A stretch of 64,000 bases of DNA. Origin: a virus (Duplodnaviria; Heunggongvirae; Uroviricota; Caudoviricetes). How positions within the stretch are numbered: the stretch's first letter is position 1; every line of letters begins with the position of its first letter. This document shows positions 23,804 through 27,569 of this stretch, in pieces. Made by a program: the position numbers and the translations under genes. Location of the stretch: IMG/VR virus record IMGVR_UViG_3300033463_000016, positions 61,995 through 125,994 of that record. One strand, written 5' to 3'. The notes under the pieces were generated by a model that was not told where the DNA came from, ran no database searches, and saw only the letters and a list, made by a program, of their open reading frames with translations.

Positions 23804-23890
23804 GTGTTGTCGGTCTGTTCCCGACTGTCATTTCGTCTTTCCGAAAAGCCAAAACAGAAATGGGGTGTTAAATGATTGCTACTGCAATCC

Positions 23891-24017
23891 GGTCGGGGCG
23901 GCAGGACTCGAACCTGCGACACACGGCACCTCAAGCATAAACGTTAAAATTGCTGCAAGTGCCTATCAAGACACCTTTTTGTTTTTTACGTTGCTCTACC
24001 AACTGAGCTACGCCCCG
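23891..24017 (-). ncRNA. tRNA-like gene interrupted by a roughly 55-nt CAGCAAT-box hairpin (intron-like insertion or pseudogene)
   Basis: Perfect 5' half CGGGGCG TA GCTCAGTTGGTAGAGC, perfect T-arm GCAGGTTCGAGTCCTGC and acceptor 3' CGCCCCG, but about 75 nt between D-arm and T-arm instead of about 22; insert contains AGGCAC TTGCAGCAATTTTAACG ... GTGCC hairpin. Confidence 0.5.
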
Positions 24018-24027
24018 AAATAAAAAC

Positions 24028-24112
24028 AAGACACATTAAGGGAATCGAACCCTGATCGAGAATTTACAGATTCTTTATTAACCATAATGTTTAAGGTTGC
24101 TGTGTGTGTCTT
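24028..24112 (-). ncRNA. CAGCAAT-box tRNA-like RNA, copy b
   Basis: 5' AAGACAC ACACAGCAACCTTAAAC ... AGAAT-CTGTAAA-ATTCT ... AGGGTTCGATTCCCT ... GTGTCTT 3'; terminal 7-bp stem AAGACAC/GTGTCTT. Confidence 0.5.
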
Positions 24113-24130
24113 ATTGATTTCTTATAAAAC

Positions 24131-24225
24131 AATACCCATTTGAATAAAGGGGTTTGAACCCTTTCACTTAACGCAAATAAACACGCCATCGCTTACCACT
24201 TTCGTAAAATTGCTGTGTGGGTATT
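24131..24225 (-). ncRNA. CAGCAAT-box tRNA-like RNA, copy c
   Basis: 5' AATACCCA CACAGCAATTTTACG ... AAGGGTTCAAACCCCTT ... TGGGTATT 3'; closing stem covaries relative to the other copies. Confidence 0.5.
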
Positions 24226-24242
24226 ATAAAATTCAAATTCAC

Positions 24243-24305
24243 AAGACGCCTATTTGGATTTCAATTACAGGCAAAATCTAAATAATTAATTGCTGCGCGC
24301 GTCTT
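24243..24305 (-). ncRNA. CAGCAAT-box hairpin RNA, copy d
   Basis: 5' AAGACGC GCGCAGCAATTAATT ... GGCGTCTT 3'. Confidence 0.45.
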
Positions 24306-24321
24306 ATTATCGTCGAATTAC

Positions 24322-24362
24322 AAGACTCCATTAACATATTGTAAGATTGCTGCGAGAGCCTT
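24322..24362 (-). ncRNA. CAGCAAT-box hairpin RNA, copy e
   Basis: 5' AAGGCTC TCGCAGCAATCTTAC ... GAGTCTT 3' (7 bp incl. one G.U). Confidence 0.45.
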
Positions 24363-24378
24363 GTTATATTCAAAAGAC

Positions 24379-24442
24379 CAGACACTATTTAAGCCGGTTT
24401 GATTAAAAGTCAAATGCTGAATAAGATTGCTGCGTGTGTCTG
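24379..24442 (-). ncRNA. CAGCAAT-box hairpin RNA, copy f
   Basis: 5' CAGACAC ACGCAGCAATCTTATTC ... GTGTCTG 3'. Confidence 0.45.
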
Positions 24443-24445
24443 AAT

Positions 24446-24520
24446 GGTACTCCGAGATGGACTTGAACCAATCGTCAAACGATTATAAGTCGTCCGTTCT
24501 AACCTTTGAACTACCGGAGC
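24446..24520 (-). pseudogene. Degenerate tRNA (anticodon TAT, Ile-like); acceptor and T-stem imperfect
   Basis: Good D-arm GTTC AAAGGTTA GAAC and anticodon arm GACGA CTTATAA TCGTT, T-loop TTCAAGT, but acceptor strands GCTCCGG / CTCGGAGT do not pair cleanly. Confidence 0.4.
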
Positions 24521-24982: not shown

Positions 24983-25171
24983 TCAAGTTTTCTTTGATAC
25001 TCCGAAGAATCCCGGAATGTTTCGTGGACTTCTTGTACAGTAATCCGTTACATCTCGTTTTAGTTTCGTGCCGCATTTCTCACAGAAGTGACCTTCTGAT
25101 GTGTATTGTGAAATCGGCATTACGATCTCAACTGACTCATTGCACTTGGGGCATATGAACTTATATATCAT
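24983..25171 (-). CDS. Small zinc-ribbon protein
   Basis: CPKCN...CEKCG; preceded by promoter at 25275-25303 and a 5'-UTR hairpin (TGTGTTGGTTA / TAACCAACACA). Confidence 0.45.
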   Translation of the reverse strand: MIYKFICPKCNESVEIVMPISQYTSEGHFCEKCGTKLKRDVTDYCTRSPRNIPGFFGVSKKT

Positions 25172-25274
25172 TTTGCGTTATTTCTTGATTTCTGCGATTT
25201 TGTGTTGGTTAGTCATTCCGGAGAAATCGTAACCAACACACAACCGTTCTTTACTTTCTTAACCCTACAATTTA

Positions 25275-25325
25275 ATTGTAGCAGATTATCTATATGATGT
25301 CAATACCCTTTTGCTTTATTTCTTG
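25275..25325 (-). promoter_or_regulatory. Sigma70-type promoter (TTGACA-17-TACAAT) plus AAGAAATAAAGCAAAA box
   Basis: -35 at 25298-25303, -10 at 25275-25280, conserved box 25306-25325. Confidence 0.65.
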
Positions 25326-25326
25326 A

Positions 25327-26853
25327 TTATTTTAGAGCTTCAAGCACGGGCTGATAGCGCTTGCCGGTGATTGTTTCGACCAGGTTCATATAGGGATCAG
25401 TTTGACCGCTCTGAATCATCTGCATAATACCGACAGAAAAGCCACTTACAAGAGTGACACCAAGATCGTTTTCCTTGATCGGAATAGTCTTAGTGCGAGA
25501 ATTGACGTTCCAAAATACCAAACGAGGCATCTTATAACCACTTCTCTCGAATCTGCCGATAATGTTTCCCATCAGCGTCTTGTTAATAGAATAACCACGA
25601 GTAGCAGAATCGAACTCCATATCAGAGATAACGAGGATTGAGTTAGGAAGCTCATCCTGGGTAGCTCCGGACTGAATCGCAGTTTGCAGAACCATATCAA
25701 ATACCTTTTCGAGATTTGTATTTGAGCAATCATCGTGTTGATAAGCGCAAGCCAACTTCGCGTGCAGACTCTTTTTAGTTGACAGATCAACAAACTGAGG
25801 TCTGGACGAAAATGTGATAAACTTGTCCTTATACTCTCCCGAACAGAACTGCGAACAGTAAATTCCGAGAGCGTTTGATACTTCGAGTGCGGTTACGCCA
25901 CTCTTGGAATCTATGGTAGTTGTCATCGAACCTGATCCATCGACCACGACCATAACGTTTTCCAAGCCCTTTGATACAGGCAGAGCCTCCCAAAGTGCCT
26001 CCAAAGTATCATTAACACTTACCCTGTTGCCAAAGCGCCAATAGCCACCATTGGTGTACTTATGTACAATGTCGTGAGGGAACAGAGTAGAAGCATTAAT
26101 CTTCGCCTCCCCCTTACTTAAAGCGCCGAGATATGCTCTACGACGTTCCTCGTCATTACGCAGGAATGCGTTGTTATAGATAAGGTTAGCCTTTGAGGGA
26201 ACGGCAGCATAGTCAATCTCGCTCCACTCCTTCGCACTCATCTTTGATTCGACGATCTTTAGGTAGTTGCGGAGTTGCGACAGAGTGCGATTATAAACCT
26301 TAATGTCCATACCAAGAGCATCAGCCAGCTTGCGGGAAAGTCTGCGGGTTTTCTGGCTGGAAGTTCTCTCACTCGGCATCCACTTAGCGAGTAGCGAAAT
26401 GGGTTTTCCGGCACGGCAACCTTCCTGATCCAGAGTGAGCTGATTCTTGATAATCTCGACAGCAGAAGTCCAAAGGCTGGTATCTGCGGTAGTGATGATG
26501 AGATCATCCCATCTTCCATATTCTGCGATCAGAGTAAGCAGTTTTGCCGCTGCTTCGGGATTTACGGCGATCAGGTGGTGGAACAGTACACGGAAAAGTC
26601 TACGCTCACCTAAACCGCCACGAACGTCACGGACAAAGAACATCCACATAATAGCAAGAACTTCGTTTTCGTCACGAGCCACATCAAAATCATTCTCGAT
26701 TGAGATTGAGTTTGTCTTACGATAACTCGCTACGTTGAAGTTCATATCGAGTAGTTTCTTGCCGGTGGTGCTATATCCGATAGCTCCGTTCTCGGTCATT
26801 TTGAGGGAATTGATTTCCTCAATGTTCTTTTGAAGTGTTGCGAAGAATGACAT
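25327..26853 (-). CDS. vWA-domain protein with about 300-aa alpha-helical N-terminal domain (Ro60/Rsr-like or DUF2828-like architecture)
   Basis: MIDAS NVMVVVDGSGSM at residues about 300-310 followed by about 200-aa vWA fold; N-domain with RDVRGGLGERRLFRVLFHHL. Architecture (helical domain plus C-terminal vWA) parallels Ro60/TROVE; cannot discriminate by eye. Confidence 0.55.
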   Translation of the reverse strand: MSFFATLQKNIEEINSLKMTENGAIGYSTTGKKLLDMNFNVASYRKTNSISIENDFDVARDENEVLAIMWMFFVRDVRGGLGERRLFRVLFHHLIAVNPEAAAKLLTLIAEYGRWDDLIITTADTSLWTSAVEIIKNQLTLDQEGCRAGKPISLLAKWMPSERTSSQKTRRLSRKLADALGMDIKVYNRTLSQLRNYLKIVESKMSAKEWSEIDYAAVPSKANLIYNNAFLRNDEERRRAYLGALSKGEAKINASTLFPHDIVHKYTNGGYWRFGNRVSVNDTLEALWEALPVSKGLENVMVVVDGSGSMTTTIDSKSGVTALEVSNALGIYCSQFCSGEYKDKFITFSSRPQFVDLSTKKSLHAKLACAYQHDDCSNTNLEKVFDMVLQTAIQSGATQDELPNSILVISDMEFDSATRGYSINKTLMGNIIGRFERSGYKMPRLVFWNVNSRTKTIPIKENDLGVTLVSGFSVGIMQMIQSGQTDPYMNLVETITGKRYQPVLEALK

Positions 26854-27079
26854 AATTTCTCTCCTTTGTTTTTAGAATTTCAAGACGCATTAATGCACAA
26901 TCGTGTAAACAAAAAAATAATGAAAAGTTGTGGTACATTCGTATCCACAGAAATTTAGTAGAAAAGCAGGAAATCAACGCATTGATCTCCGCCCCATATT
27001 TGATGATCTAATATGTAATATTGTTCTTTTAAGTTTTGTAATTTTGCCGTAGGCGTCTTATCAATGACATCATAAATAG

Positions 27080-27147
27080 TTGGGTCGAATGCGGGAGTTT
27101 AACCCGCCCTTCTGCGATTGCAGTGTGCAGCAATACACTTATTCGAC
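27080..27147 (-). ncRNA. D-arm-containing, anticodon-truncated tRNA-like element (CAGCAAT box in opposite orientation in D-loop)
   Basis: Acceptor GTCGAAT/ATTCGAC, D-arm GTGT ATTGCTGC ACAC, mini stem-loop CTGC AATC GCAG in place of anticodon arm, T-arm GCGGGTTAAACTCCCGC. Confidence 0.4.
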
Positions 27148-27216
27148 TAAGTAACTTGCTGTTGATGTCTTATCATTCTATTATATCGTCCAGTTGGACG
27201 TTATAACCATATTTAC

Positions 27217-27315
27217 AAGGCTCGTTATGACACTGCCTGATGCTCTCCCTGCTGAGCTACAATCGCCATACGGCGAACGATAGGACTCGAACCTATGACT
27301 CTCTGGTTTTCATAT
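27217..27315 (-). ncRNA. CAGCAAT-box tRNA-like RNA, copy g
   Basis: 5' AAGGCTC TAACAGCAATTTTATATG ... ATAGGTTCGAGTCCTAT ... GGCGATTGTAGCTCAGCAGGGAGAGCA ... GAGCCTT 3'; closing stem AAGGCTC/GAGCCTT. Confidence 0.5.
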
Positions 27316-27385
27316 AAAATTGCTGTTAGAGCCTTATTTTCAACAATAAAATTGGTATTTGATTGTCATTTCATTTTCAAAAATC

Positions 27386-27491
27386 AAGACACTTTCGCGT
27401 ACCCATTAGGGTTTGAGGGACTCGAACCCTCTGAAATTAACTTTCCATAGTTGATTTGTTATCCATATCGTAAAATTGCTGTAAGTGCCTT
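27386..27491 (-). ncRNA. CAGCAAT-box tRNA-like RNA, copy h
   Basis: Begins 3 nt after tRNA-Lys CCA: 5' AAGGCAC TTACAGCAATTTTACG ... GAGGGTTCGAGTCCCTC ... GTGTCTT 3'. Confidence 0.5.
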
Positions 27492-27494
27492 ATG

Positions 27495-27569
27495 TGGTGC
27501 GCGTGATGGGAGTCGAACCCAACTAAGCACGATTAAAAGTCGTGTGCATAGCCGCTTTGCTACACGCGC
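27495..27569 (-). tRNA. tRNA-Lys (TTT), CCA encoded
   Basis: Acceptor GCGCGTG/CACGCGC, D-arm GCAA..GCAC, anticodon stem CACGA/TCGTG with loop CTTTTAA, T-loop GGGTTCGACTCCC. Confidence 0.85.

What the first reader, a model, noticed from the sequence alone, without database searches (positions are those of the whole stretch)
23889..27500. Family of at least eight CAGCAAT-box hairpin / tRNA-like RNAs with covarying closing stems
On the tRNA-coding (minus) strand, a roughly 22-nt core A(A/T)AAG(A/G)C-N5-CAGCAAT(T/C)TTA recurs at least eight times (+ strand ATTGCTG at about 23948, 24096, 24209, 24290, 24346, 24428, 27308, 27471, plus a weaker ninth at about 27151). Each copy opens a hairpin or tRNA-like fold closed by a 7-8 bp stem whose sequence differs between copies in a compensatory way: AAGACAC/GTGTCTT, AATACCCA/TGGGTATT, AAGACGC/GCGTCTT, AAGGCTC/GAGTCTT, CAGACAC/GTGTCTG, AAGGCTC/GAGCCTT, AAGGCAC/GTGTCTT, AGGCAC/GTGCC. 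Several copies enclose a T-arm-like GGTTCGAnTCC hairpin and one an anticodon-like arm. One copy sits inside an otherwise well-formed tRNA gene, and another starts 3 nt after a tRNA CCA. Compensatory base changes argue for a transcribed, structured RNA family rather than a protein-coding or purely DNA-level repeat. Ends paired with a tRNA-mimic module is the layout of bacterial/phage Y RNAs (YrlA) bound by Ro60/Rsr. The elements sit next to a vWA protein with Ro-like domain order and within an island encoding Thg1-like and Tpt1 enzymes. I do not recognise this motif from any described family.
Basis: seen in the sequence. Interest (0 to 1): 0.88.

Follow-up and report, generated by a model that had tools for sequence, protein, structure and literature searches.

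The report
Ro-partner RNA handle on phage tRNAs
A short conserved RNA stem-plus-box "handle" occurs about ten times around a phage gene for a Ro60-like protein, lies beside that gene in phages of many bacterial phyla, and carries tRNA-like pieces; in some copies it interrupts or circularly permutes a complete tRNA gene, which points to an undescribed phage RNA-protein system that acts on tRNAs.

Summary
Eight copies score E 3e-7 to 0.03 with a covariance model and two are degenerate. All lie on the minus strand within 2.5 kb of gene 25327-26853, and nothing else in the 64 kb matches.

- **The constant part ("handle").** It is a 7-bp covarying stem (P1), an invariant ACAGCAA directly 3' of its first strand, and a conserved G after its second strand. 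No Rfam 15 family covers it.
- **The linkage.** In 79 loci encoding homologues of that protein (30-60% identity), all 135 model hits lie on the gene's strand, at a median of about 160 nt from it. These include phages of E. coli, Listeria, Enterococcus, Bacillus, Campylobacter and Mycobacterium.
- **The variable part.** It is tRNA-derived: anticodon stem-loops, T arms or whole tRNAs.
- **New finding.** In copy c9 the handle is a 52-nt insertion at tRNA positions 29/30, and deleting it gives a perfect tRNA. Copy c2 is a circularly permuted tRNA-Phe-like gene. Across loci, 29 of 53 interrupted scaffolds and 19 of 31 permuted candidates reconstruct perfectly; shifted controls give 0-1 of 53.

Best reading: these are Y-RNA-like partners of the Ro-like protein. 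Whether the handle is excised, making it a new tRNA intron class, remains open.

The parts
27385..27492 (-). Copy c1. Handle (P1 TAAGGCACTT/AAGTGTCTTG, box at 27481-27476) carrying a T-arm hairpin and a small hairpin. It starts 2-3 nt after the CCA of tRNA-Lys.
   Evidence: Model R1 hit 27383-27491, 23.8 bits, E 0.017; sequence and fold.
27215..27337 (-). Copy c2. The handle sits at the open ends (ATAAGGCTC / GAGCCTTGT, box 27325-27320). It encloses a T arm, an acceptor stem closed by GTAT, and a D arm, so this is a circularly permuted tRNA-Phe(GAA)-like gene with a YrlA-like layout.
   Evidence: Rfam YrlA hit 27209-27326, 27.6 bits against GA 69. Rearranged in silico, it is called tRNA-Phe(gaa) by ARAGORN, with anticodon arm TCAGG.CTGAAAA.CCAGA (4 of 5 pairs).
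27066..27169 (-). Copy c3 (degenerate box CAGCAAG, P1 GACATCA/TGATGTC). It encloses a whole tRNA-like cloverleaf (27083-27147) whose anticodon loop is only a tetraloop.
   Evidence: Stem search; Rfam tRNA hit 32.5 bits with a 4-nt anticodon loop. Model R1 did not detect it.
26881..27060 (-). Copy c10 (degenerate box CGGCAAA, P1 TAAGACGC/GCGTCTTG), 180 nt long. It ends 28 nt before the ATG of the Ro-like gene and contains a terminator-like hairpin at 26990-26969.
   Evidence: Stem search; terminator-like site. Model R1 did not detect it, so membership is uncertain.
25327..26853 (-). Gene for a 508-aa DUF2828/DUF7788 protein with the Ro60 fold (helical ring plus a vWA domain with an intact MIDAS motif). 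It is the predicted protein partner of the handle.
25275..25303 (-). Sigma-70-like promoter (TTGACA, 17 nt, TG, TACAAT) just after the Ro-like gene. It lies upstream of a zinc-ribbon ORF, four tRNAs and copies c4-c9.
   Evidence: 11 of 12 consensus match. This is a consensus match only.
24378..24443 (-). Copy c4. Handle (TCAGACAC/GTGTCTGG) carrying an anticodon-stem-loop mimic TTTGA-CTTTTAA-TCAAA (UUU). It abuts the 3' end of tRNA-Ile.
   Evidence: R1 46.8 bits, E 3.4e-7; fold.
24320..24364 (-). Copy c5. Minimal 45-nt handle (ACAAGGCTCT/GGAGTCTTGT).
   Evidence: R1 31.3 bits, E 4.9e-4.
24242..24305 (-). Copy c6. Handle (AAGACGC/GCGTCTT plus G) with a short AU-rich cargo.
   Evidence: R1 28.5 bits, E 0.0018.
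24129..24227 (-). Copy c7. Handle (ATAATACCCA/TGGGTATTGT) carrying a T-arm-like hairpin.
   Evidence: R1 22.5 bits, E 0.031; fold.
24025..24115 (-). Copy c8. Handle (AATAAGACACA/TGTGTCTTGTT) carrying an anticodon arm AGAAT-CTGTAAA-TTCT (GUA) and a T arm.
   Evidence: R1 42.2 bits, E 2.9e-6; fold.
23893..24017 (-). Copy c9. An interrupted tRNA: exon 1 at 24017-23989 (positions 1-29), a 52-nt insertion at 23988-23937 (a P1 hairpin GTGTCT-TGAT-AGGCAC followed by the box at 23955-23950), and exon 2 at 23936-23893.
   Evidence: ARAGORN finds no gene in the unspliced sequence. After removing the insertion it calls a 75-nt tRNA with anticodon GAG and anticodon stem ACGGC/GCCGT. R1 hit 23920-23966.

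Best explanation
The repeats are genes for a modular family of small phage RNAs.

**Constant part (the handle).** It is a 7-bp helix P1 whose sequence is free to vary as long as it pairs, an unpaired invariant ACAGCAA immediately 3' of its first strand, and a conserved G after its second strand. I take this to be the docking site for the Ro60-fold DUF2828/DUF7788 protein encoded between the two clusters, in the way a Y RNA docks on Ro60.

**Variable part (the cargo).** It is built from tRNA parts: a bare anticodon stem-loop, a T arm, an anticodon-less cloverleaf, or a complete tRNA. On a complete tRNA the handle branches off the anticodon stem at nt 28/29-29/30. The connectivity is either normal (c9, P1 capped by a loop) or circularly permuted (c2, acceptor stem capped by a loop).

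**Proposed steps.**
1. The RNAs are co-transcribed with the tRNA array and freed by the enzymes that process the flanking tRNAs (inferred).
2. The Ro-like ring binds the handle (inferred from linkage and from the invariance of the box).
3. The tRNA-like cargo then presents tRNA features to tRNA-directed factors. It acts either as a decoy for host tRNA-cleaving defences or as a tether that brings tRNA-handling enzymes to the protein (speculative).

Removal of the handle to release functional tRNAs from c9/c2-type copies is a compatible extension. I rate it at roughly 1 in 3.
For: **Shown**
- The family and its P1 covariation are real.
- The box ACAGCAA is invariant in 92 of 92 aligned copies from hosts as far apart as Mycobacterium and Campylobacter.
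- The protein has the Ro60 fold.
- Linkage: 135 of 135 model hits in 79 DUF2828 loci lie on the gene's strand. Of 95 hits with E<=0.05, none lies inside the gene and 71 lie within 500 nt of it, with median gaps of 154 nt upstream and 175 nt downstream.
- Reverse linkage: 50 of 118 loci chosen only by the DNA motif contain the gene in the piece fetched.
- No other protein is consistently linked.
- The cargo is tRNA-derived in every architecture.
- The model covers the majority class (minimal and anticodon-stem-loop-only copies) as well as c3 and c8, which the splicing model does not explain.
- Circular permutation preserves the fold, as expected if the folded unspliced RNA is the functional form.
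- 12 of 31 interrupted tRNAs duplicate the anticodon of a normal tRNA in the same locus.

**From the literature**
- Ro60 recognises conserved 5'-strand bases of a bulged helix, and YrlA genes lie within 4 kb on the same strand as rsr (PMC4201824).
- A phage Ro60 binds phage-encoded Y-like RNAs and host PNPase (PMC12135203).
- A Ro60-like protein directly upstream of the tRNA stretch of the Felixounavirus Bas63 counters the ppl defence (bioRxiv 10.1101/2024.10.10.617714).
Against: - There is no expression, end-mapping or binding data.
- The protein is related to Ro60 only by fold. Pfam TROVE is not hit, and a profile search of PDB sequences gives E 1.7.
- The box differs from the Ro-binding motifs GGUCCGA and GNCGAA.
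- The anticodon arms reconstruct perfectly across the insertion. Several interrupted genes have ordinary tRNA identity features, such as U1-A72 Asn-like bodies. N-CCA is encoded in 7 of about 28 acceptor linkers of permuted copies. All this looks more like real tRNA genes that need maturation than like mimics.
- I found no second conserved helix next to the box, so the 'bulged helix' analogy is incomplete.
- About 30 of 79 DUF2828 loci have no detectable copy in the DNA fetched, up to 4 kb either side of the gene.
Confidence: 0.5

Rival explanations
1. The handle is a new kind of protein-dependent tRNA intron and permutation joint. In c9-type genes it is cut out of the 5' strand of the anticodon stem (28/29-29/30, sometimes in the loop) and the exons are ligated. 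In c2-type genes P1 brings the transcript ends together, cleavage and ligation give a circular intermediate, and RNase P plus 3' trimming open it at the acceptor linker, as for the permuted tRNAs of Cyanidioschyzon. The Ro-like protein would recognise the handle and recruit or position the nuclease and ligase. This does not exclude protein binding; it differs from the best explanation in what happens to the handle.
For: - Of 53 distinct scaffolds (7/7 acceptor, D arm, T arm, box in between), 29 give a perfect 5-bp anticodon stem and a 7-nt loop with U33 and R37 after removal of 39-57 nt. Register-shifted controls give 0-1 of 53.
- 19 of 31 permuted candidates give the same, with the same junction.
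- ARAGORN calls all nine tested products as canonical tRNAs, while unspliced c9 gives none.
- Insertions begin with TA and sit at a fixed site in many isoacceptors.
- N-CCA is encoded in 7 of about 28 permuted linkers.
- An insertion at 29/30 should be incompatible with the ribosomal P site (established knowledge).
- The window also encodes Tpt1, the enzyme that removes the 2'-phosphate left at tRNA splice junctions, together with NAD salvage genes and a Thg1-like enzyme. Listeria phage LP-125 has RtcB 1.3 kb from its DUF2828 gene.
Against: - No endonuclease or ligase is consistently linked. Tpt1, Thg1 and RtcB homologues are each found in at most one of the 203 fetched loci, and no RNA ligase or kinase was found in the window.
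- There is no bulge-helix-bulge motif.
- The majority of copies (minimal, anticodon-stem-loop-only, c3, c8) have nothing sensible to splice.
- 12 of 31 interrupted tRNAs are redundant with an intact tRNA nearby.
- Some reconstructed tRNAs put Ser, Leu or Tyr anticodons on short-variable-arm bodies.
- No intron-less allele was found in the loci held.
Confidence: 0.35
2. The handle is a self-cleaving or otherwise autonomous RNA processing signal (a small ribozyme or an RNase recognition site). It punctuates the tRNA polycistron independently of the Ro-like protein.
For: The conserved core is small (ACAGCAA, a G-C pair in P1, and the G after P1). Copies abut tRNA ends and have no promoters or terminators of their own. 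The motif exists in circularly permuted forms, as many small ribozymes do.
Against: No match to any ribozyme family in Rfam 15 at E<=10. The distance from the box to the putative junctions varies from 4 to 29 nt, mostly 7-14, which is unlike a fixed catalytic core. The tight and exclusive linkage to one protein family is left unexplained.
Confidence: 0.06
3. It is a DNA-level repeat: a miniature mobile element, a recombination or homing site, or a protein-binding iteron that happens to be palindromic.
For: It has many copies, sits at the same site in different tRNA genes, and occurs in arrays.
Against: It is strictly strand-specific relative to the gene and the tRNAs (135 of 135). G-U is tolerated but A-C much less (19 vs 6). 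The stem sequence changes freely while pairing is kept. The two stem strands can lie 40-180 nt apart around structured tRNA-like cargo. There are no target-site duplications or terminal repeats beyond P1.
Confidence: 0.03
4. The copies are decayed tRNA pseudogenes or spacers of the tRNA array, or cis-regulatory leaders or terminators of the Ro-like gene, with no function in trans.
For: Several window copies (c1, c7, c10) carry only fragments of tRNA structure. c10 sits in the 5' leader of the gene and contains a terminator-like hairpin.
Against: The box is invariant and P1 covaries over phages of at least four to five bacterial phyla. Copies occur both upstream and downstream of the gene and in multiples. 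Most lack U-tracts.
Confidence: 0.04

Closest known systems
Bacterial and phage YrlA Y RNAs bound by Ro60/Rsr (Rfam RF02553; Chen et al. 2014, PMC4201824)
   Same: Small RNAs encoded on the same strand within a few hundred nt of a Ro60-fold gene, often in several copies. A terminal stem with a conserved motif near the 5' end is combined with a tRNA-like module. c2 and L146 3569-3676 have exactly the YrlA order of T arm, closed acceptor and D arm.
   Different: The conserved motif is an unpaired ACAGCAA rather than GNCGAA within the stem. Scores are 27.6-39.8 bits against a threshold of 69. The protein partner is DUF2828/DUF7788, not a Pfam TROVE protein. Most copies have no YrlA module. Some keep a complete, canonical anticodon arm, so the RNA is a whole tRNA plus an extra arm.
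Thermus phage phiLo Ro60 with Yrl1/Yrl2 (PMC12135203)
   Different: The phiLo RNAs carry the CGAA motif in a large internal bulge and have no reported tRNA interruption. Sequence identity of the proteins is about 15%.
Circularly permuted tRNA genes of Cyanidioschyzon merolae and some archaea
   Same: The 3' half comes before the 5' half, the acceptor ends are joined by a short linker that can encode CCA, and the transcript ends pair with each other next to the anticodon arm.
   Different: Those use a bulge-helix-bulge motif cut by the splicing endonuclease. Here the joint is the P1 plus ACAGCAA handle, mostly at 28/29-29/30, the setting is bacterial viruses, and no EndA-like enzyme is evident. 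Processing is unproven.
Protein-spliced tRNA introns of archaea and eukaryotes, and group I introns in bacterial tRNA genes
   Same: An insertion in the anticodon arm whose removal restores a canonical tRNA.
   Different: There is no bulge-helix-bulge motif and the position is unusual (the 5' strand of the anticodon stem). At 39-57 nt it is far too short for a group I intron, and there is no Rfam intron match.
Phage tRNA arrays used as counter-defence against tRNA-cleaving systems; Bas63 gp130 (bioRxiv 10.1101/2024.10.10.617714)
   Same: The location is inside tRNA arrays. A Ro60-like protein directly upstream of the tRNA stretch in a Felixounavirus counters a defence system. E. coli Felixounavirus wV8 carries three handle copies between its tRNAs.
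   Different: That work did not identify an RNA partner and only speculated that some annotated tRNAs might be Y RNAs. I infer, but did not verify, that gp130 is the orthologue of wV8 gp47.

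Membership tests
YrlA (Rfam RF02553) | Score at or above the Rfam gathering threshold (69 bits) | tested here: not met
   Best window hit is 27.6 bits at 27209-27326. Best hit in a related locus is 39.8 bits, covering only part of the model. Minimal copies give no hit at E<=10.
YrlA (Rfam RF02553) | GNCGAA(N0-1)G motif near the 5' end, within the terminal stem | tested here: not met
   The invariant motif is ACAGCAA and it is not part of the covarying stem.
YrlA (Rfam RF02553) | tRNA-like module made of a T arm, a closed acceptor-like stem and a D arm | tested here: inconclusive
   Present in c2, L146 and about 30 other copies, but absent from most copies.
Y RNA in the functional sense (RNA partner of a Ro60-type protein) | Encoded next to, and on the same strand as, the Ro60-type gene | tested here: met
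   135 of 135 hits are on the same strand, 71 of 95 lie within 500 nt, and 50 of 118 motif-selected loci contain the gene.
Y RNA in the functional sense (RNA partner of a Ro60-type protein) | Physically bound by the protein | not testable with these tools
   Needs RIP, CLIP or EMSA.
Ro60/TROVE proteins (for the partner protein) | Helical-repeat ring followed by a vWA domain with a MIDAS motif | tested here: met
Ro60/TROVE proteins (for the partner protein) | Sequence membership of Pfam TROVE (PF05731) | tested here: not met
   Pfam gives only DUF2828 and DUF7788. A profile search of PDB sequences gives E 1.7 to the phiLo TROVE protein.
Bulge-helix-bulge tRNA introns and permuted tRNAs | Removing the insertion or re-joining the halves restores a canonical cloverleaf | tested here: met
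   29 of 53 interrupted scaffolds and 19 of 31 permuted candidates; controls give 0-1 of 53; ARAGORN confirms the products.
Bulge-helix-bulge tRNA introns and permuted tRNAs | Bulge-helix-bulge motif at the junctions and a splicing endonuclease of the EndA family | tested here: not met
   The junctions lie in the 5' strand of the anticodon stem with AU-rich linkers and no 3-4-3 motif. No such domain was found in the window ORFs scanned.
Bulge-helix-bulge tRNA introns and permuted tRNAs | A spliced or ligated product exists in vivo | not testable with these tools
   Needs tRNA-seq or RT-PCR of infected cells.
Group I intron | P1-P9 core of about 200 nt or more | tested here: not met
   Insertions are 39-57 nt and there is no Rfam hit.

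The most novel reading that the evidence does not exclude
The P1 plus ACAGCAA handle defines a third class of tRNA intron, alongside group I and bulge-helix-bulge introns, and gives the first circularly permuted tRNA genes in bacterial viruses. A Ro60-fold protein recognises the handle and acts as the specificity factor for excision and ligation. Bacterial YrlA Y RNAs, which are permuted tRNA-like RNAs encoded beside Ro60 and the RtcB ligase, would then be relics of such permuted tRNAs. That would give Ro60-type proteins a concrete ancestral job in tRNA maturation.
Probability: 0.3. Interest if true: 0.95.

Novelty: new variant of a known kind. Interest (0 to 1): 0.86.

Why it matters
The DUF2828 protein is present in at least 711 sequenced cultured phages (Felixounavirus, Listeria P100-like, Enterococcus, Staphylococcus, Campylobacter, mycobacteriophage cluster L and others) and in thousands of metagenomic ones. 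It has no known function.

This work gives it a candidate RNA ligand with a precise, testable signature, and that ligand is present in laboratory phages. It shows that tRNA gene finders miss a class of interrupted and permuted tRNA genes in phage genomes. It also connects Ro60/Y RNA biology, whose bacterial role is still unclear, to tRNA-shaped RNAs in a system where a defence-related phenotype has already been reported for the protein.

If the handle is excised, it would be a new RNA splicing and processing pathway in bacteria and their viruses.

Tried and rejected
- **Rfam.** Gathering and E<=10 scans of the window and of four related loci found only tRNA, tmRNA and weak YrlA hits, and nothing over the minimal copies.
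- **GenBank phages.** There is no close relative of the window; only tRNA-sized matches were found.
- **A second helix next to the box.** I tested pairing of the U-rich run after ACAGCAA with the A-rich run before the 3' strand of P1. Pairing potential is no higher than in shuffled controls, so I dropped it. P1 extension pairs 10 and 11 are also unsupported, being unpaired in about half of the sequences.
- **Bulge-helix-bulge geometry at the junctions.** I examined it by hand on c9 and its relatives, and it does not fit.
- **Other linked proteins.** Tpt1, Thg1-like, zinc ribbon, Band7, phosphoesterases, RtcB and wV8 gp46 are not consistently linked. No RNA ligase or kinase was found among the window ORFs scanned.
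- **Intron-less alleles.** I found none in the loci held. A pattern scan for the uninterrupted body found only an ordinary tRNA-Lys.
- **Literature.** Searches for DUF2828, phage Ro60, phage tRNA introns and permuted tRNAs in phages found no description of this RNA.
AGGCAC/GTGCC is replaced by GTGTCT/AGGCAC on the evidence of homologous copies.

Full report
**Setting.** The window is part of a 171-kb uncultured phage contig with no close relative among GenBank phages. Its minus strand carries 17 ARAGORN tRNAs and a tmRNA. It also encodes a Thg1-like enzyme, Tpt1, an NAD-salvage cluster and a 508-aa DUF2828/DUF7788 protein at 25327-26853.

**Check of the observation.** The CAGCAA box occurs on the minus strand at 27481, 27325, 24432, 24352, 24295, 24215, 24102 and 23955. 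Degenerate copies lie at 27161 and 27049. Each box is preceded, 1-3 nt upstream, by a 7-11-nt strand whose complement lies 40-180 nt downstream and is followed by G. A covariance model (R1), built from 41 copies in other phages plus one window copy, finds eight window copies at E 3.4e-7 to 0.031, all on the minus strand. Nothing else in the 64 kb scores below E 4.6. Two positions are off by 4-17 nt, and the stem it gave for the copy inside the tRNA is not the homologous one.

**The family is real and widespread.** A scan of IMG/VR with only the 5' pattern (AAGRCNCNNNCAGCAAYYTTA) returned at least 118 stretches. Of 111 non-redundant hits, 85 have GNGYCTT within 260 nt downstream, and in 83 of them the free position pairs (A-T 70, G-C 16, T-A 13, G-T 3). 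On 88 distinct model-aligned sequences the seven core pairs are paired in essentially every sequence, with many double substitutions. One pair, for example, is AU 34, GC 34, UA 16, CG 4. Overall pairing is 86%, against 30-45% when the partner columns are slid (seed alignment). RNAalifold predicts exactly this 7-bp helix. The box ACAGCAA is invariant (92 of 92 for CAGC-A, 91 of 92 for the remaining A of CAGCAA, 78 of 92 for the preceding A), and the G after P1 is present in 88 of 92. G-U is tolerated more than A-C (19 vs 6), so the structure is read from this strand as RNA. I found no support for a second fixed helix, and pairs 10 and 11 of the extended stem are unsupported. No Rfam 15 family covers the element.

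**Linkage of RNA and protein.**
- In 79 loci encoding homologues (76 from IMG/VR at 30-60% identity, plus three cultured phages), R1 gives 135 hits at E<=1, and all 135 lie on the strand of the gene.
- 44 loci have a hit at E<=0.05.
- Of 95 such hits in the IMG/VR loci, 47 lie upstream (median gap 154 nt), 48 lie downstream (median 175 nt) and none lies inside the gene. 71 are within 500 nt, although up to 4 kb of flank on each side was requested.
- Conversely, 50 of 118 loci selected only by the DNA motif contain the gene in the piece fetched.
- Copies flank the gene in E. coli phage wV8 (between annotated tRNAs), Listeria LP-125, Enterococcus EFGrKN, Bacillus Tsamsa, Campylobacter CP30A and mycobacteriophage JoeDirt, and weakly in Synechococcus B23. 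Vibrio phi-ST2 has none.
- No other protein tested is consistently linked.

This is the same type of evidence that defined YrlA as the partner of Rsr (PMC4201824).

**Anatomy of the cargo.** Among 202 distinct copies, 95 have no recognisable module and 48 carry a hairpin with a canonical 7-nt anticodon loop. A further 30 carry a T arm and also match the anticodon-loop pattern, which T loops themselves satisfy. Six carry a T arm alone and 23 a GG-containing loop, several of which are again anticodon loops such as UUAGGGA. The commonest anticodons are UUU 16, GUU 8, GCA 5, and GCU, UGU, UGG and GAU 4 each. The window shows the whole range:
- c5 and c6 are minimal.
- c4 carries a UUU anticodon arm.
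- c8 carries a GUA anticodon arm and a T arm.
- c1 and c7 carry T-arm hairpins.
- c3 carries a cloverleaf whose anticodon loop is a tetraloop.
- c2 has the YrlA order of T arm, closed acceptor and D arm (27.6 bits to RF02553).
- c9 sits inside a tRNA.

**The handle interrupts and permutes complete tRNAs.** Related loci show many tRNAs in which a hairpin (3'-type P1 strand, a 3-5-nt loop beginning with the conserved G, 5'-type P1 strand) followed by the box lies between the D arm and the T arm. I collected 53 distinct scaffolds with a 7/7 acceptor stem, a D arm, a T arm and a box in between. In 29 of them, removing one 39-57-nt segment gives a perfect 5-bp anticodon stem and a 7-nt loop with U33 and a purine at 37. 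Register-shifted controls give 0-1 of 53. The junction is after nt 28 or 29 in 22 of the 29 and inside the loop in most of the rest. Most insertions begin with TA.

Window copy c9 is one of these:
- exon 1 is 24017-23989;
- the insertion is 23988-23937;
- exon 2 is 23936-23893.

ARAGORN finds nothing in the unspliced sequence. In the spliced one it finds a canonical 75-nt tRNA with anticodon GAG.

The mirror arrangement also recurs, with the handle at the open ends and the acceptor stem closed by a 3-14-nt linker. Of 31 candidates, 19 reconstruct a perfect anticodon arm, mostly at the same junction. They include a tRNA-Cys(GCA) in the cultured Enterococcus phage EFGrKN. Seven of about 28 linkers begin with N-CCA. 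Window copy c2 rearranges to a tRNA-Phe(GAA), with one A-A mismatch in the anticodon stem. The interrupted and permuted forms are circular permutations of one fold: a full tRNA with an extra arm, the handle, leaving the anticodon stem.

**Interpretation.** Two readings fit, and they share the inferred protein-handle contact.

*(A) The folded, unspliced RNAs are the products.* They would be Y-RNA-like partners of the Ro-like protein whose tRNA-derived cargo acts as a decoy or a tether.
- This explains every architecture, including the majority minimal class, c3 and c8.
- It needs no unknown enzymes.
- It fits the fact that the only conserved partner is the Ro-like protein.
- It fits the redundancy of 12 of 31 interrupted tRNAs with intact neighbours.
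- It fits circular permutation, which preserves the fold rather than the product.
- It fits the anti-defence phenotype reported for the Ro60-like gp130 upstream of the Bas63 tRNA stretch.

*(B) The handle is excised or used as a permutation joint to make functional tRNAs.*
- It is supported by the precision and statistics of the reconstructions.
- Several interrupted genes have ordinary identity features, and some linkers encode CCA.
- A branch at 29/30 is expected to be incompatible with ribosome binding.
- In this window, Tpt1 is present.
- Against it: no linked nuclease or ligase, no bulge-helix-bulge motif, Ser, Leu or Tyr anticodons on class-I bodies, and no role for most copies.

I put A at about 0.5 and B at about 0.35. 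The remainder goes to an autonomous processing element, a DNA-level repeat, or decayed or cis-regulatory sequence. Those are disfavoured by strand specificity, covariation and the exclusive protein linkage.

**Transcription.** There are no promoter-like or terminator-like sites of note at individual copies. A strong sigma-70-like site at 25303-25275 precedes the downstream cluster. Several copies abut tRNA ends. Co-transcription with the tRNAs and release by tRNA-processing enzymes is therefore inferred, not shown.

**Comparison and novelty.** The element works like a Y RNA, but it fails the membership tests for YrlA on score and motif. The protein has the Ro60 fold but is not a Pfam TROVE member. 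The interrupted and permuted genes resemble archaeal and eukaryotic introns and Cyanidioschyzon permuted tRNAs in outcome only. I found no description of this RNA, of DUF2828 ligands, or of permuted or small-intron tRNA genes in bacteriophages in the searchable literature. I classify it as a new variant of a known kind (a Ro-type protein with a Y-like RNA). There is roughly a 30% chance that it is something categorically new: a third class of tRNA intron, with a Ro60-fold protein as its recognition factor.

Noticed in passing
window 29447-29935 (-): A full-length tmRNA gene (87.5 bits) sits inside the phage tRNA region. A wcaG RNA hit (48 bits, GA 42) lies within it at 29639-29731 and is probably a by-product of the tmRNA structure.
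   Followed up: no
window 49681-49799 (-): A SAM-I riboswitch aptamer just above the Rfam threshold (47.1 vs 44.4 bits) in a phage genome. I did not identify the gene it would control.
   Followed up: no
window 32971-36631 (-), 27983-28513 (-): An NAD+ salvage block (NadE, NAMPT-like, PRPP-synthetase-like, isochorismatase/nicotinamidase-like) lies a few kb from Tpt1, which consumes NAD+. An NAD-dependent DNA ligase is at 8219-10249.
   Followed up: partly
window 16026-21738 (-): A run of phosphoesterases (two metallophosphoesterases and one DHH/DHHA1) lies next to a Thg1-like 3'-5' polymerase. It may be an RNA end-healing set, but no kinase or RNA ligase was recognised.
   Followed up: partly
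window 30401-30471, 30857-30913, 31025-31093, 27575-27648 (-): Odd tRNA-like sequences. Three are weak or partial Rfam tRNA hits, two of which ARAGORN does not call. One ARAGORN 'tRNA-Arg(acg)' has no Rfam match. None carries the box, and they may be further unusual tRNAs.
   Followed up: no
window 25201-25250 (-): A near-perfect 16-bp hairpin (GGTTGTGTGTTGGTTA...TAACCAACACAAAATC) sits between the promoter-like site and the 62-aa zinc-ribbon ORF (24983-25171). Its function is unknown.
   Followed up: no
L005, L053, L070, L079 (5' linkers of the insertions): The motif ATCAACCAAC/T recurs in the linker between the 5' junction and P1 in several interrupted tRNAs of different phages. I have no explanation for it.
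   Followed up: no
L141, L145, L151, L140, L079, L007, L124, window c9: One tRNA body (TAGCTCAGTTGGTAGAGCA ACG|..|GC-loop-GCCGT) carries many different anticodon loops (GAG, GTT, TGT, TGG, TCT, GCT, AGG, CTC). Orthologous positions in closely related phages differ only in the anticodon loop (TGG vs TGT).
   Followed up: partly
L119 2990-4010: In the 1 kb upstream of this phage's DUF2828 gene, about ten boxes are packed almost end to end. They alternate between minimal, anticodon-arm and tRNA-embedded forms.
   Followed up: partly
L195 (E. coli phage wV8) 6329-6586: The annotated hypothetical minus-strand CDS '48' overlaps handle copy 6273-6345 and a permuted tRNA-like element starting near 6360. 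The CDS call may be spurious.
   Followed up: no
window 40592-41566 (-): A tyrosine-recombinase (phage integrase family) gene in this large tRNA-rich phage.
   Followed up: no
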